Assembly (NCBI GenBank): GCA_016932035.1
Contig: JAFGDR010000031.1
Location: 71,399 to 135,398 of the forward strand
Origin: Candidatus Cloacimonadota bacterium
Lineage (GTDB): Bacteria > Cloacimonadota > Cloacimonadia > JGIOTU-2
Reading direction: 5' to 3'
DNA: 64,000 nt
Shown here piece by piece: positions 22,979 to 54,721 of this stretch. Positions within the stretch are counted from its first letter, which is position 1, and each line of letters begins with the position of its first letter. The notes below the pieces were generated by a model that saw nothing but the letters and a program-made list of their open reading frames with translations, was not told the DNA's origin and searched no databases. A program made the translations under genes and the position numbers.

Positions 22979-23710
22979 ATGTTTGATACAGTAAGCTTGA
23001 TACATGTTGCAGCATATATAGGTGCCGGACTCGCCGTGGGCATCTCATCCATCGGAGCAGGTGTTGGTGAGGGTTATATTGCCGGCAATGCTAATTATGC
23101 TATGATGAAACAGCCCAAGTCAAATGATGTGCTTCTACGCACAATGCTCATTGCCCAAGCAATAACTGAGACAGGAGCCATTTTCGCTCTCGTTATTGCT
23201 ATGCTCCTTCTTTTTGGGGGTTCCATTGTTCCTGATGCAGGATGGCAGAGAATAGCATCACTCTTTGGTGCAGGGCTTGTCATGGGAGCTGGATGCCTGG
23301 GAACGGGGCTTGGTATTGGTTATGCAGGAGGGCAGGCATGCCAGGGCATTGGCAGACAACCCAGAGAAGCAAAGACCTTAACAGCAAATATGCTTATTGG
23401 ACAGGCATTGTCAGAAACCTCAGCCATCTTTGCCCTTGTTATTGCCATGCTTCTTTTATATTCAACACCGGACGGAAACAGTGTGGTCAAATCTTTTGCA
23501 TTTATCGGTGCGGCATTTGCAATGGGATTCGGCACGTTCGGTCCAGGATTTGGAATCGGTATCGTTGCAGGAAAAACGGTTGATGGGATCAGCAGATTCC
23601 CCAAACAGTCCTCAGTTCTTCTTCGAACCATGTTCGTAGGTGCAGCGGTATCAGAATCAACATCAATATATGCATTAGTTATTGCATTTTTATTATTATT
23701 CGTAACGTAA
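22979..23710 (+). CDS. atpE: Triplicated F0 c subunit (three fused hairpins)
   Basis: Three c-type repeats, each with a GxGxGxG helix, a polar loop (KQP/RQP/RFP) and an acidic residue: E64 (QAITETG), E146 (QALSETS), E226 (AAVSESTSIY). Confidence 0.9.
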   Translation: MFDTVSLIHVAAYIGAGLAVGISSIGAGVGEGYIAGNANYAMMKQPKSNDVLLRTMLIAQAITETGAIFALVIAMLLLFGGSIVPDAGWQRIASLFGAGLVMGAGCLGTGLGIGYAGGQACQGIGRQPREAKTLTANMLIGQALSETSAIFALVIAMLLLYSTPDGNSVVKSFAFIGAAFAMGFGTFGPGFGIGIVAGKTVDGISRFPKQSSVLLRTMFVGAAVSESTSIYALVIAFLLLFVT

Positions 23711-23730
23711 TTTGATCCTTAGGAGGATAC

Positions 23731-23970
23731 ATGGAAAGTGAAATCATTAGAGCAGCAGCTTTGTTAGGTGCCGGCATTTGTATGGGATTCGGTGCTATCG
23801 GACCTGGAATCGGTGAAGGATTCACCGCAGGAAAAGCTTGTGAAGGTATTGCACGCTCTCCTGAAAACGCAGGATTACTCACAAGAACAATGCTTGTTGG
23901 CCAGGCAGTATCGGAATCTACCGGTATCTACTCGCTCGTTATATCCCTGTTGCTTATTTTCGCAGTGTAA
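23731..23970 (+). CDS. atpE: F0 c subunit with Na+-binding signature
   Basis: GPGIGEG (E29), RSPE loop, QAVSESTGIY (E62, S63, T64, Y67), matching the Na+ ligand pattern of Na+-type c rings. Confidence 0.95.
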   Translation: MESEIIRAAALLGAGICMGFGAIGPGIGEGFTAGKACEGIARSPENAGLLTRTMLVGQAVSESTGIYSLVISLLLIFAV

Positions 23971-50553: not shown

Positions 50554-51327
50554 TTAAAAGGTATTATCTTCTTTTAATAAGATTTCGTTTATAACTTCTC
50601 CTATTTTATTAAGGTTATAAACTTTTGAAGAATTTAAATATTCAGATATGGATTTAGATAAGCTCGGTAATAATTTATCTTTATTTAACTTTTTTAAAAG
50701 GGGTAATATTCGATAACTTACACCATCTACTGAGATATTATCGTTAATTCGGTCAACAAATATTTTGTAATTATAATCTGTTATTGGATTTCCTTTCGGA
50801 GTTTTTCCATATACCTTTTCAATATTATCATCTTGGTGAAATTTATATTTCCGCTTGTTTGAAGCCAATTGGTCTGCAAACTCAACACTTCCTCGTATAT
50901 TACATCTATCACGTTCGACTTCTTTGCATATACTCCAAATAGAGAATAGTATAGCTTGAGTATATTTCTTTTCTTTTTGAAGAAAAATTCTCATTTGGTT
51001 AGCAATTTCTGCTTGTGAAAAGACATCTACAAATTTAACATTGAGTTCATTTAGAATTCTCCACCCCTCATCGTTTTTATTAGCTAGTTGTAAGTACATA
51101 GGAAGCCTCAGGCGTTCTTTAATCATAAGATCATTAGATCCCTTTAAAGAGAATGCCTCTTTCAGTATTTTACAAGCTTCATCATACTTTTTTTCATTTT
51201 TTAGGATTGTAGCTTTCTTTAACTTCTCTCTAGCAGGATTTATCTCATTATTAACAACAAGTTTTACGCCAAATTCAATTTTTGATTGTTTTTTATTACT
51301 AGAGAATATATTTTTAAAAAAATCCAA
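50554..51327 (-). CDS. Hypothetical protein (helical/TPR-like), AT-rich
   Basis: 257-aa open frame with a TTG start in a visibly AT-richer segment; RLPMYLQ motif; no family assigned. Confidence 0.6.
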   Translation of the reverse strand: MDFFKNIFSSNKKQSKIEFGVKLVVNNEINPAREKLKKATILKNEKKYDEACKILKEAFSLKGSNDLMIKERLRLPMYLQLANKNDEGWRILNELNVKFVDVFSQAEIANQMRIFLQKEKKYTQAILFSIWSICKEVERDRCNIRGSVEFADQLASNKRKYKFHQDDNIEKVYGKTPKGNPITDYNYKIFVDRINDNISVDGVSYRILPLLKKLNKDKLLPSLSKSISEYLNSSKVYNLNKIGEVINEILLKEDNTF

Positions 51328-51712
51328 ACATAGTAATTTCCTATTCTTTTTCTGTAGTATATCATCTTATTAATAGTACAAAAAGTACAATAATCTTAAA
51401 ATATTCACAATTCATAACACACTTATATTATTCAATAATAATTACAACAAATTAAAGAAATATTTCATAATTTCCCTGTCAATATTTTATATTACACAAA
51501 AAATTTTGTATACTATACATAGCGAGTATTAATGCAATACTTGATAGACTATCAAAAGTACTTTTATGGGAGTGCATGTCTTAAGTGGATTGAGAAAATT
51601 CTAGAATGAAACGTAAAAAGTTTTAAGGAATAGACTTTCGATTATGCTACGAATTACTCCATCCGGGAGTATGACAAAGGTTTTTATATAATCTCAAGCT
51701 AAGGGCGTCTAA

Positions 51713-52207
51713 TTATTGATTTTTGATTGGATGTTCATGAGTCATAATGGTTTGATTTTGTATTTTTCCTGAAGATGTATCTAAAGTGTCAATAGCTGAA
51801 GGTAATGCTACTACTAATGTTATTAAGGCTATTACTAATAATGTTATTGTAAGAGTTTTTAATGACTTATTCAGTCTCCAGTCTTTAAATTTATCATGCA
51901 GTTTCCAACAATTGCTTGTATCAATTTTATAACGGTCCTTACAGTCTATACGATCAACAAAAGAACAATATTCATCTCCTAGACTTTTTTGTATTTTATT
52001 AAATTTACTTTCATCAAAATTAAGTATTTTTAGCATTTCCTCTTTGTAAAAATGTGGATTGAATTCCTCCTTTTTAGAAGCGTATTCCAGAAGCACAAAT
52101 AAAAATTCTTCTCGTTCTTTTTGAGCCTTATTTATTACTTTCATATCAATTTCCTTATAGCTAATTTTTGCTTTGTTCAAAATATGAAATGCCCTATCAT
52201 TTACCAA
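51713..52207 (-). CDS. Hypothetical protein with one C-terminal TM helix
   Basis: 164-aa ORF, AT-rich, hydrophobic LTITLLVIALITLVVAL. Confidence 0.55.
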   Translation of the reverse strand: MVNDRAFHILNKAKISYKEIDMKVINKAQKEREEFLFVLLEYASKKEEFNPHFYKEEMLKILNFDESKFNKIQKSLGDEYCSFVDRIDCKDRYKIDTSNCWKLHDKFKDWRLNKSLKTLTITLLVIALITLVVALPSAIDTLDTSSGKIQNQTIMTHEHPIKNQ

Positions 52208-52216
52208 TCATTTAAA

Positions 52217-52702
52217 TTATACAAGGTCGCGGATTACATTCTTGAAAATATCGTGGATAGCAGCAAGTAGTATTGAGAATATGACAACAGCAAAAGCTAT
52301 CTCCCATGAAAATCCTATCAAAGCTATACCAAGTGCAGTTCCGCATGCAGGAGGATGCTCGCAGTCTATCATGACCATTATGAACATCGAAATTCCAACC
52401 GATGCAGCAAGTATGAGTATCTCAATATAGAAAGACGAGAAAGGTATAAGGGATATCAAAGAACCAACGAGCAAACCCGTAAGATGTCCACCAATTATGC
52501 TTCTGGGACGTGCGGAAACGCTGTTCGGCATAGCGAATACAATAAAGACCGTTGCACCGATAGAAGCGATCACGATCGCATTGCTGAATTTGAGGATGAT
52601 GAGAATGAGAAATACTGAAACAGTTGCGAAAAGGCTTTGAAAGAGATAGTTTTTCCAGTGCTGGGCTAGCTCAGTTTTATTTTTTCTAAATGTTTTTCTC
52701 AT
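52217..52702 (-). CDS. HPP family membrane protein
   Basis: ASIGAT..VF..P, RSIIGGH, CEHPPACGTAL. Confidence 0.9.
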   Translation of the reverse strand: MRKTFRKNKTELAQHWKNYLFQSLFATVSVFLILIILKFSNAIVIASIGATVFIVFAMPNSVSARPRSIIGGHLTGLLVGSLISLIPFSSFYIEILILAASVGISMFIMVMIDCEHPPACGTALGIALIGFSWEIAFAVVIFSILLAAIHDIFKNVIRDLV

Positions 52703-52705
52703 AGT

Positions 52706-53020
52706 CTAAATTATTTTTTCTATTGGAAGTAATACGATATTTCCAATTCCATCGTCAACAAAATTCACATCCGACCGTTTAAGTTCTTCCAACATAAAAT
52801 CAATTTGAGTATTATCGACTACGGCCATGATGAGGTTTGTGAATTGCTTTTCGTCGCCGAATGTACTTCTAAAACCAGCGAATAGCGGCATGCTGAAAGT
52901 CAATTTATGACTCAAGGATTCTCCGCTGAGAACAATAGTGTCTTCGACCCCGGCTTCTGTCAGAGCCATCATTATATCATCTAAGTATTTTACTTTGTAA
53001 AGCTGCAATATCATATACAT
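52706..53020 (-). CDS. PII-like small protein
   Basis: 104 aa, LDDIMMALTEAGV, and C-terminal GIGNIVLLPIEKI resembling the PII GDGKIFV.PVE; co-oriented with the antiporter. Confidence 0.6.
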   Translation of the reverse strand: MYMILQLYKVKYLDDIMMALTEAGVEDTIVLSGESLSHKLTFSMPLFAGFRSTFGDEKQFTNLIMAVVDNTQIDFMLEELKRSDVNFVDDGIGNIVLLPIEKII

Positions 53021-53038
53021 AGTGTCACCTAATAAAAA

Positions 53039-54259
53039 TTAATCTCCTCTGTCTGCAAGGGCTTCTCCCGATTTGAATAGAGCCCATTTAAGAAATATCG
53101 GTCCAACAAGCATGACGAGAAACGTCGTTGCAGTAACGGTGCTGATGATCTGGTTCGCATACAGTGACATGCCAAGATTTTCAAGGGTCTTGGATGCTGC
53201 TAGAGCTAATCCGATCGCAACACCTGCCTGGTCAAGAAGACAGAATCCCAGATATTTCCGAACAGGTTCTGTTGCGTGGGAGAGCGAACCGCCAACGTAA
53301 GCACCTACCCATTTGCCTGAAGAACGTGCGAGAATATAGACAATTGCAAGAAGTCCGAATTTTATCAATAATGAAAGGTCAAGACGGGCACCGACAAGTA
53401 CGAAGAACCAAACATAGATCGGTGGCGACCAATCACCGAGGGCAGTGAATATTTTCCGGGCATTGATCGGTTTTGAGTTGATGACCACGATTCCCATAGC
53501 CATGTTTAGAAGGATGGGAGAAAGTTTCAAAATCTCAGCAATGCCGCAATTTAGAAGAATGATGCCAAGCGAAAAGATGAGGAGTTTGACCCGGTCATGT
53601 ATGCGTTGACTCACCAGCATCATAAGAAATCCAATTGCAACTCCGATAATAACGGAGAGGAACATTTCAAGACCAGCTGTACCCAGTGCAGAAAGAATGG
53701 ATGATGCTGTGCTCGTGTGCACATCTCCAAGAAAGATTAATGCAACCGGCATAATGATGATATAAATAACAAGCGCAAGAATATCATCCAATCCGACAAT
53801 TGCATAGAGTGTTGTTGTTAATGTTCCTTTTGCTTTATACTCACGAACAACTTCCACTGTAGCTGCTGGAGCTGTGGCAACGGCAAGTGCGCCGAAAATA
53901 AGTCCAAGTGGGATGCTTTTAAGAAGGAGACTCAACGCAATACTAACAAAAAAGAACGCACCAAAGGATTCAAAAAACAGCGTATAAATAATAACTTTTC
54001 CCAATTTTTTTATTTCACTCCATCTTAACGCACCACCGATACCAAAACCGATAAGCGATAGTGTAACGACATTAATGATCTCGAGTGACCTAATCTGTTC
54101 ATAGGAAATAAAATTAAAAACACTTGGACCAAGCAATGCTCCAGCAATAATATAACCTACAATAAGTGGTGATTTTAGAAGTTTTGCACCATTCGAGAAG
54201 ATAAGCGCAGCAATGAGTGATATTCCAAGAAAAATAAAAATGAAATGAGTTGTATACAT
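53039..54259 (-). CDS. Cation:proton antiporter (CPA superfamily), no C-terminal regulatory domain
   Basis: VGYIIAGALLGP, ATAPAAT, VGLDD, FFVLVGARLD, QAGVAIGL; about 12 TM helices. Confidence 0.88.
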   Translation of the reverse strand: MYTTHFIFIFLGISLIAALIFSNGAKLLKSPLIVGYIIAGALLGPSVFNFISYEQIRSLEIINVVTLSLIGFGIGGALRWSEIKKLGKVIIYTLFFESFGAFFFVSIALSLLLKSIPLGLIFGALAVATAPAATVEVVREYKAKGTLTTTLYAIVGLDDILALVIYIIIMPVALIFLGDVHTSTASSILSALGTAGLEMFLSVIIGVAIGFLMMLVSQRIHDRVKLLIFSLGIILLNCGIAEILKLSPILLNMAMGIVVINSKPINARKIFTALGDWSPPIYVWFFVLVGARLDLSLLIKFGLLAIVYILARSSGKWVGAYVGGSLSHATEPVRKYLGFCLLDQAGVAIGLALAASKTLENLGMSLYANQIISTVTATTFLVMLVGPIFLKWALFKSGEALADRGD

Positions 54260-54721
54260 CTAATCCTGCGTTTTGATAAGAGAATACATGTCTTGCGGAG
54301 ATTGAGCAGAGAGGAGTTTTTGTACAAATGATCTGTTTTTCAGACGAAGAACAAGACGGGACAGAAGGCGAATATAATCCTTGTCCTGCGTATCCGAAGC
54401 ACCGATCATGAATATGAGAGAAACCGGTTTGTTGTCTATGGATTCATACTCAAGCCCTTCTACTTTTCTGCCGAGTGCGATAACAAAATCCTGTATGGAT
54501 TTGTCACGTATGTGGGGAACAGCAATGCCATATCCAATGCCGGTACTCATTAGTTTTTCCCGGTCATAAATTTTCTTAAGAAATAGTTTTGGGTCAGTAA
54601 TAAGTTCGCTGTTACATATTATTCCTGAAAGTTCTTTCAGCGCTTCGTCTTTGTTATCGGAAATTATATCGATAATACGATCCGGTTCGAGGTATTTATG
54701 AATTTGAATCAGGTTCTTCAT
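54260..54721 (-). CDS. PTS EIIA-domain protein (PtsN / fructose-type)
   Basis: REKLMSTGIGYGIAVPH (phospho-His motif), IDNKPVSLIFMI. Start set at ATG 54721. Confidence 0.9.
   Translation of the reverse strand: MKNLIQIHKYLEPDRIIDIISDNKDEALKELSGIICNSELITDPKLFLKKIYDREKLMSTGIGYGIAVPHIRDKSIQDFVIALGRKVEGLEYESIDNKPVSLIFMIGASDTQDKDYIRLLSRLVLRLKNRSFVQKLLSAQSPQDMYSLIKTQD

What the first reader, a model, noticed from the sequence alone, without database searches (positions are those of the whole stretch)
52217..54721. Four-gene module: PTS EIIA + cation:H+ antiporter + PII-like protein + HPP membrane protein
Seen: tightly packed on one strand (EIIA stop abuts the antiporter start; gaps of 18 and 3 bp follow). 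The antiporter lacks an RCK/KTN tail, and no EIIB/EIIC sugar permease is nearby. Established: EIIA(Ntr) regulates K+ transport (TrkA, KdpD), PII-like proteins gate transporters (GlnK-AmtB, SbtB-SbtA), and a cyanobacterial HPP protein transports nitrite. Inference: an uncharacterised ion-transport complex gated by two signal inputs, PTS phosphorylation state and a nucleotide-sensing PII-like trimer. This would fit an organism with Na+-based bioenergetics.
Basis: inference. Interest (0 to 1): 0.62.

Follow-up and report, generated by a model that had tools for sequence, protein, structure and literature searches.

The report
EIIA and PII-like antiporter control module
Three neighbouring genes (a sugar-phosphotransferase-type signalling protein, an ion/proton exchanger without a regulatory tail, and an unusual PII-fold protein) stay together in many uncultured bacteria and probably form an unstudied switch that ties ion and pH balance to metabolic state, while the fourth gene (HPP) is a local add-on.

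Summary
The four genes are real and packed as described (gaps 0/18/3 bp). The host is a Cloacimonadota bacterium. The 104-aa protein has no Pfam hit but folds as PII (pLDDT 90.6; top matches all PII or PII-like). The conserved unit has three genes, not four. EIIA and antiporter accompany the PII-like gene in 74 of 74 testable genome loci; HPP does so in 2 of 78. All 4 CPA genes of this genome carry an EIIA, two through EIIA-PII-like fusions. Related pairings occur in two more phyla. His70 is kept in 76 of 76 EIIAs, and HPr, EI and HPrK are present; no PF02378 EIIC was found. 'Nucleotide-sensing' is unsupported: canonical PII and c-di-AMP motifs are missing in 84 of 84 orthologues. Best model: a PII-like adaptor replaces the missing regulatory tail and relays EIIA phosphorylation to a CPA2 exchanger, as the CorC domain does in YcgO. 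No binding is shown. I found no paper on it, but this scan noted the same module on other DNA many times.

The parts
54260..54721 (-). Stand-alone PTS EIIA (PF00359, Fru/Mtl/Ntr type), 153 aa, phospho-acceptor His70; core part
   Evidence: Pfam E 1e-33; nearest solved relatives are PtsN proteins (1a6j E 6.5e-24); His70 in 76 of 76 module EIIAs; below the PtsN equivalog cut-offs
53039..54259 (-). Membrane-only CPA2-type cation/proton antiporter, 406 aa; motif A128-T129-A130-P131, D158-D159, K316, plus invariant E97; core part
   Evidence: Pfam E 8e-30; invariant residues in 62 orthologues; motifs; model pLDDT 82.5; closest folds NHA2, MjNhaP1, PaNhaP, NapA at about 20% identity
52706..53020 (-). 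Divergent PII-like protein, 104 aa; predicted helical T-loop with invariant P45 and F47; no canonical B-loop or C-loop motif; core part
   Evidence: AF2 pLDDT 90.6; Foldseek top hits all PII, E about 1e-4, TM about 0.6; VIA top four CPII, DUF3240, SbtB, TM0021 at Z 7.8-8.6; motif counts
52217..52702 (-). HPP-family membrane protein, 161 aa (H116-P117-P118); accessory, limited to this family's loci
   Evidence: Pfam TM_HPP E 1e-22; alignment; linkage counts

Best explanation
The locus is a three-part regulated ion exchanger with a passenger gene. Shown: a tail-less CPA2 antiporter is encoded with a free EIIA and a divergent PII-fold protein; in paralogues the two soluble parts are fused, in either order. 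Inferred: PEP -> EI -> HPr phosphorylates EIIA His70. Unphosphorylated EIIA docks on the PII-like protein, plausibly on its invariant P-x-F T-loop aromatics, as PtsN His73 docks on aromatic residues of YcgO's CorC domain. The PII-like protein contacts the antiporter's cytoplasmic face and acts as a detachable regulatory domain, holding it off until EIIA is phosphorylated. The sign of control is borrowed from YcgO and is weak. The substrate is most likely Na+ (Li+)/H+, since motif position 4 is non-polar; stoichiometry is open. HPP was appended in one family and is not a required subunit.
For: EIIA and CPA are present in 74 of 74 genome loci with at least 1.9 kb upstream, and in 35 of 35 full metagenome loci. 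The PII-like family occurs in 145 of 232 phylum genomes. In this genome 4 of 4 PF00999 genes are tied to an EIIA: one free trio, two EIIA-PII-like fusions beside CPAs, and one CPA-EIIA fusion. All 3 PII-like domains sit at a CPA. The fusion also pairs with a CPA clade only 18-21% identical to this one. Other phyla, within 1.5 kb of the PII-like gene: WOR-3, CPA in 22 of 30 loci and EIIA in 18 of 30; Marinimicrobia, CPA in 22 of 25 and EIIA in 24 of 25. In WOR-3 the PII-like gene appears with CPA alone (10) or EIIA alone (6), which fits a hub role. His70 is kept in 98 of 98 EIIA domains. hprK-ptsH-ptsI is present and no EIIC was found. Precedent: PtsN-CorC-YcgO (PMC11808508 abstract; bioRxiv 10.64898/2026.08.14.744764 abstract and discussion).
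Against: All evidence for regulation is genomic. CPAs are usually dimers and PII proteins trimers (own knowledge), unlike the matched trimers of SbtA-SbtB. In WOR-3, 8 of 30 PII-like loci have no CPA within 1.5 kb. One locus heads an Mrp-like operon and one has neither partner (L348, L349), so targets may vary. Loci within the phylum are kin and not independent. The T-loop helices come from a monomer model with pLDDT 71-87 there, and the hydrophobic moment is modest. Nothing sets the direction of control.
Confidence: 0.55

Rival explanations
1. Two-input gate: the PII-like trimer is itself a ligand sensor (adenine nucleotide, c-di-AMP or an ion) that plugs the antiporter with its T-loop like SbtB or GlnK, and EIIA adds a second input.
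For: SbtB and CPII are among the tied top structural matches. Orthologues keep G93 (67%), K94 (68%), K39 (96%) and R/K51 (88%), and SbtB uses basic T-loop residues for phosphates. CPA plus PII-like loci with no EIIA within 1.5 kb exist (10 of 30 in WOR-3). The genome has a diadenylate cyclase domain.
Against: The PROSITE B-loop pattern, TGxxGDGKI and RxRTG each occur in 0 of 84 and 0 of 133 sequences; GGFL in 0 of 84 and 1 of 133. Q39 and K58 align with K and Y/F. The window protein has N94 and ends at residue 104. The basic residues are not kept in the wider family (K39 26%).
Confidence: 0.25
2. The genes are co-expressed for ion homeostasis, but EIIA and the PII-like protein act on other targets (Trk/Ktr, Mrp, a kinase) and do not touch this antiporter.
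For: PtsN acts on TrkA and KdpD in trans (PMC13104625 passages). The genome has three TrkH-family genes. Six of 30 WOR-3 loci have EIIA plus PII-like without a CPA within 1.5 kb.
Against: CPA-EIIA fusions exist (G000 C34, L070, L189). Adjacency holds across unrelated CPA clades and gene orders.
Confidence: 0.12
3. HPP is a functional fourth subunit, or a second EIIA-controlled transporter (for example for an anion such as nitrite) in the same complex.
For: There is a 3-bp gap to the PII-like gene. G011 and G013 keep intact EIIA and HPP side by side without CPA or PII; G011 has a 27-aa PII remnant between them. One planctomycete locus has HPP right after a permease-EIIA fusion (L229).
Against: HPP is present in 2 of 78 and 4 of 57 module loci and 0 of 55 in two other phyla. 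Two same-genus loci with ample downstream DNA lack it (G005, G008). The closest HPP relatives have no common neighbour; the largest shared cluster is 8 of 80 loci. A crude motif scan found no multiheme protein in 7319 ORFs.
Confidence: 0.08

Closest known systems
E. coli PtsN (EIIA-Ntr) inhibiting the CPA1 K+/H+ antiporter YcgO/CvrA via its CorC domain (PMC11808508; bioRxiv 10.64898/2026.08.14.744764)
   Same: An EIIA with an intact phospho-His and no sugar permease, linked to a CPA-fold antiporter.
   Different: The antiporter here has a CPA2-type motif (DD, K; no position-5 Glu) and no RCK or CorC tail. The EIIA is encoded in the same operon. A PII-like gene is constant. The relay is HPrK/HPr/EI, and the 573-aa EI has no room for an N-terminal GAF domain.
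SbtB-SbtA and GlnK-AmtB (PII-fold proteins controlling a co-encoded transporter; bioRxiv 10.1101/2023.08.10.552651, passages)
   Same: A PII-fold gene abutting a transporter gene; SbtB is a tied top structural match (Z 7.9, rmsd 3.1, 85 aligned).
   Different: The target is a CPA. Canonical nucleotide and 2-OG motifs are absent. The T-loop is predicted helical with invariant P-x-F. The PII-like domain is paired or fused with an EIIA.
CPA2 antiporters NHA2 (SLC9B2) and NapA; archaeal NhaP (Masrati 2018, PMC6181914)
   Same: NhaA fold, TM 0.67-0.78; DD motif; an invariant TM3 glutamate 61 residues before the first Asp (E215 is 63 before D278 in NHA2).
   Different: About 20% identity; Lys rather than Arg at position 8; ATAP in the unwound TM4; encoded with soluble regulators.
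HPP-family nitrite transporters of plastids and cyanobacteria (Maeda 2014, seen only as cited in PMC6093901)
   Same: TM_HPP domain with the H-P-P motif.
   Different: Substrate is untested here, no nitrogen-oxide genes lie at the locus, and this subfamily has no conserved neighbours.

Membership tests
PII superfamily (fold level) | Ferredoxin-like PII core with an extended T-loop | tested here: met
   weak sequence support from Pfam P-II E 1e-3 to 4e-5, below cut-off, in 5 of 47 relatives and 2gw8 E 0.0016
PII superfamily (fold level) | Homotrimer | not tested
   Only a monomer model was made; trimer formation was not scored
Canonical PII (GlnB/GlnK) | B-loop TGxxGDGKI / PS00638 ATP motif | tested here: not met
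   0 of 84 orthologues and 0 of 133 family members (motif)
Canonical PII (GlnB/GlnK) | Gln39 and Lys58 for 2-oxoglutarate | tested here: not met
   They align with K39 and F/Y60
PstA/DarA c-di-AMP receptors | Short T' loop with GGFL | tested here: not met
   0 of 84 and 1 of 133; the T-loop is long
SbtB | Adenine-nucleotide binding by basic T-loop residues | tested here: inconclusive
   K39 and R/K51 are kept in orthologues but not family-wide; equivalence to SbtB K40/R43/R46 was not established
SbtB | Partner is the SbtA bicarbonate transporter | tested here: not met
   The neighbour is PF00999
PtsN (EIIA-Ntr) | NCBIfam equivalog score | tested here: not met
   TIGR01419 69.8 against 138.7; NF008145 63.9 against 221
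PtsN (EIIA-Ntr) | Phospho-acceptor His, no cognate EIIBC | tested here: met
   His70 in 76 of 76; no PF02378 match in the 95%-complete genome
PtsN (EIIA-Ntr) | GAF-bearing PtsP relay | tested here: not met
   The single EI is 573 aa and its PEP-utilisers_N match starts 15 bp into the ORF; it follows hprK-ptsH
YcgO/CvrA | CPA1 motif plus RCK and CorC tail | tested here: not met
   406 aa, no tail; I154 at position 5 and K316 at position 8
CPA2 | No Glu at motif position 5; D7 and basic position 8 | tested here: met
   I154, D158-D159, K316; spacings match the published averages. The best PDB sequence hits are nevertheless archaeal NhaP, and no superfamily tree was built
Electrogenic CPA2 (NhaA/NapA/GerN) | D6+D7+K8 without a neutralising TM3 glutamate | tested here: inconclusive
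   DD and K are present, but E97 is invariant at NHA2-E215-like spacing
K+-selective Kef-like CPA2 | Ser/Thr at motif position 4 and an RCK tail | tested here: not met
   P131, no tail
HPP nitrite transporters | TM_HPP domain with HPP motif | tested here: met
HPP nitrite transporters | Nitrite transport | not testable with these tools
   Needs a transport assay

The most novel reading that the evidence does not exclude
The EIIA plus PII-like pair is a portable control head, the trans-acting counterpart of RCK/CorC tails. It places every CPA of this organism (4 of 4 carry an EIIA, 3 with a PII-like domain) and unrelated exchangers in several phyla under PTS control. Its PII-like part defines a new PII class whose helical P-x-F T-loop reads EIIA phosphorylation, or an unknown ligand, in place of ATP and 2-oxoglutarate. 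It would be the main job of the sugar-less PTS in these Na+-energised anaerobes.
Probability: 0.35. Interest if true: 0.72.

Novelty: new variant of a known kind. Interest (0 to 1): 0.52.

Why it matters
Many uncultured bacteria keep EI, HPr and several EIIAs with no sugar permease, and their targets are unknown. This module names a target class (tail-less CPAs) and a candidate adaptor, and can be tested in E. coli antiporter mutants. It would also join two regulatory systems known separately, PTS phosphorylation and PII-fold transporter gating, and add a PII-like family that Pfam, NCBIfam and PDB sequence searches miss. The HPP gene adds little.

Tried and rejected
Complex prediction of three PII-like copies with the antiporter gave no verdict (score 0.05, mark 0.32); it is not used for or against binding. 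EIIA-PII and EIIA-CPA complexes were not run (one job). No RNA holder was listed for the stretch, and two same-study RNA runs laid nothing, so expression is unknown. Promoter and terminator scans were at chance level (14 against 13.9; 3 against 2.2). The 104-aa protein had no hit in NCBIfam, PDB sequences or plasmids; its Pfam Glyco_transf_52 hit (E 7e-4, below cut-off) and the alphaRep hits were rejected as noise. Atlas hits pointed to P-II but scored under 0.9, a lead only. A search for longer fusions found one EIIA fusion among 8000 scored candidates, weak evidence on other fusions. The 699-aa frame in L093 is read-through across an N gap into FTCD, not a fusion. The HPP tree groups the three module HPPs (98*) but leaves the G011 and G013 copies unresolved, and the one-clade test did not finish. 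The CPA tree is the quick version with long-branch warnings. HPP has no PDB sequence relative and was not folded. Phylum surveys around a planctomycete and an Omnitrophota genome and the nitrite-reductase family searches returned no answer. Literature: nine counted searches plus one for HPP showed no paper on this module; two searches gave zero papers. Subscription reviews of PII-like proteins and a recalled PTS genome survey (not held) could not be checked and may mention EIIA-antiporter fusions. The Masrati supplementary notes on clade motifs were not held (only the review file), so clade assignment is open.

Full report
Observation. Pfam gives PTS_EIIA_2, Na_H_Exchanger and TM_HPP; the 104-aa ORF has no credible family. 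Named homologues are Candidatus Cloacimonetes/Cloacimonadota. The window is contig C49 of a 2.44-Mb, 95%-complete genome. A DNA run from a second study bridges all three junctions, in two contigs.

The 104-aa protein. I aligned 133 sequences: the window protein, 31 of the 106 hits, and the full-length short hits among the 150 listed. AlphaFold2 gave pLDDT 90.6 with a PII-like strand and helix order and two helices (36-43, 45-54) in the T-loop position. Foldseek's listed hits are all PII or PII-like (E about 1e-4, TM about 0.6). The wider VIA search ranks CPII, DUF3240, SbtB and TM0021 first (Z 8.6-7.8, tied), with other ferredoxin-like domains close behind at Z up to 7.8. The profile weakly finds PII chains by sequence (2gw8 E 0.0016). 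The fold is therefore PII-like. Canonical ligand motifs are missing: the B-loop ATP motif, RxRTG (recalled) and the T-loop signature are in 0 of 84 orthologues and 0 of 133 family members; the PstA GGFL motif is in 0 of 84 and 1 of 133 (motifs from passages of PMC5768801 and PMC4316997). Q39 and K58 align with Lys and Tyr/Phe. The near-invariant residues are P45 and F47 (84 of 84; 92% and 98% family-wide). G93-K94 survive in about two-thirds of orthologues, but the window protein has N94. The genome has no canonical P-II match. Nucleotide sensing is thus neither shown nor excluded.

Co-conservation. The family occurs in 145 of 232 genomes of the phylum (150 of 296 matches were listed). I fetched 83 stand-alone orthologue loci: 23 and 60 top-scoring ones. 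All 74 with at least 1.9 kb upstream hold both EIIA and CPA. The 60 loci long enough to classify are EIIA-CPA-PII (43), EIIA-CPA-PII-CPA (10), EIIA-PII-CPA (6) and EIIA-CPA-PII-HPP (1). In 73 metagenome loci, 35 of 35 full ones hold both, and 67 of 67 with at least 300 bp upstream hold one or both; these partly overlap the genome set and all are kin. The own genome has four PF00999 genes: this one; two beside EIIA-PII-like fusions (C12, C7); and one fused to EIIA (C34). In relatives the fusion also accompanies a CPA clade only 18-21% identical. Outside the phylum the profile hit 40 of 81 WOR-3 and 19 of 81 Marinimicrobia-phylum genomes. Within 1.5 kb, the 30 WOR-3 loci returned had CPA in 22, EIIA in 18, both in 12 and neither in 2; the 25 Marinimicrobia loci had CPA in 22 and EIIA in 24. 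A planctomycete-labelled genome appears to have the fusion in reverse order (L344: EIIA at residues 126-269 after an N-terminal part I judged PII-like by eye). Names for other relatives include Planctomycetota, TA06/WOR-3 and Latescibacterota.

HPP. It follows the PII-like gene in 2 of 78 genome loci and 4 of 57 metagenome loci with at least 300 bp downstream; all are close kin, and one metagenome locus is identical to the window. It is in 0 of 55 loci of two other phyla (short flanks). HPP occurs in 21 of 232 phylum genomes. Of the 80 closest HPP loci (of 410 found), 2 lie at the module, and these appear to be the same two genomes; the rest share no common neighbour. On the other side, two genomes of the same family keep EIIA next to HPP without CPA or PII, one with a 27-aa PII remnant. 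One planctomycete has HPP after a permease-EIIA fusion, and three genomes of another genus have a CPA 3-4 kb from HPP across other genes. So the four-gene order is probably older than the genus, but HPP is dispensable and family-limited. Its nitrite link rests on plant and cyanobacterial proteins (cited in PMC6093901, passages) and has no support at this locus.

EIIA and relay. His70 is kept in 76 of 76 module EIIAs and 22 of 22 other EIIA domains checked. The nearest solved relatives are PtsN proteins, but equivalog cut-offs are missed. The genome has hprK-ptsH-ptsI in one operon, with an EI too short at the N-terminus for a GAF domain. No PF02378 EIIC was found. It has seven EIIA domains. 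This is a regulatory PTS, but not the proteobacterial Ntr branch.

Antiporter. By the eight-position motif of Masrati 2018 (PMC6181914; parts 1, 2 and 4 of 8 and passages read) it is CPA2-type: ATAP, no Glu at position 5, D158-D159, K316, invariant in 62 orthologues. A non-polar position 4 suggests Na+ rather than K+. DD plus K suggests electrogenic exchange, but an invariant E97 lies at the spacing of NHA2 E215, proposed to make NHA2 electroneutral; NHA2 and MjNhaP1 are the top fold matches. There is no cytoplasmic tail. The host looks Na+-energised: c subunits with a Na+-type motif (motif recalled), RnfD/NqrB-family genes and a membrane PPase.

Mechanism. In E. coli, unphosphorylated PtsN binds YcgO's CorC domain through His73 against two aromatic residues, CorC then restrains the transport helices, and phosphorylation releases it (abstracts and discussion). 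Here the antiporter lacks any such domain, and a PII-like protein with invariant T-loop aromatics is always supplied, free or fused to EIIA. The simplest reading is that it is the detachable equivalent: EIIA senses PEP-linked phosphorylation and the PII-like protein passes it to the exchanger (0.55). Gene linkage, fusions, fold and residues are shown; phosphorylation, binding, direction and substrate are inferred.

Novelty. The parts each have precedents: PtsN-YcgO, SbtB-SbtA and GlnK-AmtB. I found no paper on the combination or on this PII-like family in ten searches of the open library; subscription reviews were out of reach. This scan has noted the same EIIA/PII-like/antiporter theme in many other genomes (unchecked AI notes, not counted as support); none of those shown holds all the HPP search words. 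Verdict: a real, conserved, apparently unstudied three-gene module and a new variant of EIIA-controlled antiport, with the HPP gene an accessory. Interest 0.52.

Noticed in passing
window 22979-23970: F-ATPase operon with a 243-aa triple-hairpin c subunit plus a normal 79-aa c subunit, both with a Na+-type E-S/T motif (recalled); this suggests a mixed c ring.
   Followed up: partly
G000:C42:22204-24093; L229:3050-4912: Amino-acid-permease (APC) domain fused to a C-terminal EIIA, in this genome and in a planctomycete.
   Followed up: partly
G000:C41:26921-27586 and C24:26130-26606: An EIIA with a short N-terminal helix-turn-helix-like part (by eye), and a further free EIIA; seven EIIA domains in all with no EIIC found.
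   Followed up: no
L083:890-1944 (G011); L078:1477-2699 (G013): EIIA and HPP left adjacent after loss of CPA and PII-like; G011 keeps a 27-aa PII C-terminal remnant.
   Followed up: yes
L126, L129, L131, L133, L137, L138, L140, L144, L145, L107: Variant EIIA-CPA-PII-CPA with two antiporter paralogues; in several the first copy lacks the Arg before the TM10 lysine motif. L116 keeps a 60-aa CPA remnant. A heterodimer is possible.
   Followed up: partly
L348 (G259): PII-like gene heading an Mrp-like multi-subunit antiporter operon (identified by eye).
   Followed up: no
L344:4909-5736: Apparent reverse-order fusion (PII-like-looking N-terminus, EIIA C-terminus) before CPA and a second PII-like gene.
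   Followed up: partly
window 50554-52207: Low-GC stretch (30.6%) with two orphan ORFs (164 and 257 aa) inserted between HPP and the cobalamin-type ABC genes; no relatives in fetched loci.
   Followed up: partly
L161, L168, L169, L186: HPP gene next to a membrane-pyrophosphatase-like gene (by eye) in 4 of 80 loci.
   Followed up: no
L232: Partial HPP joined upstream of a half CPA and the PII-like gene; a rearrangement or a chimeric contig.
   Followed up: no
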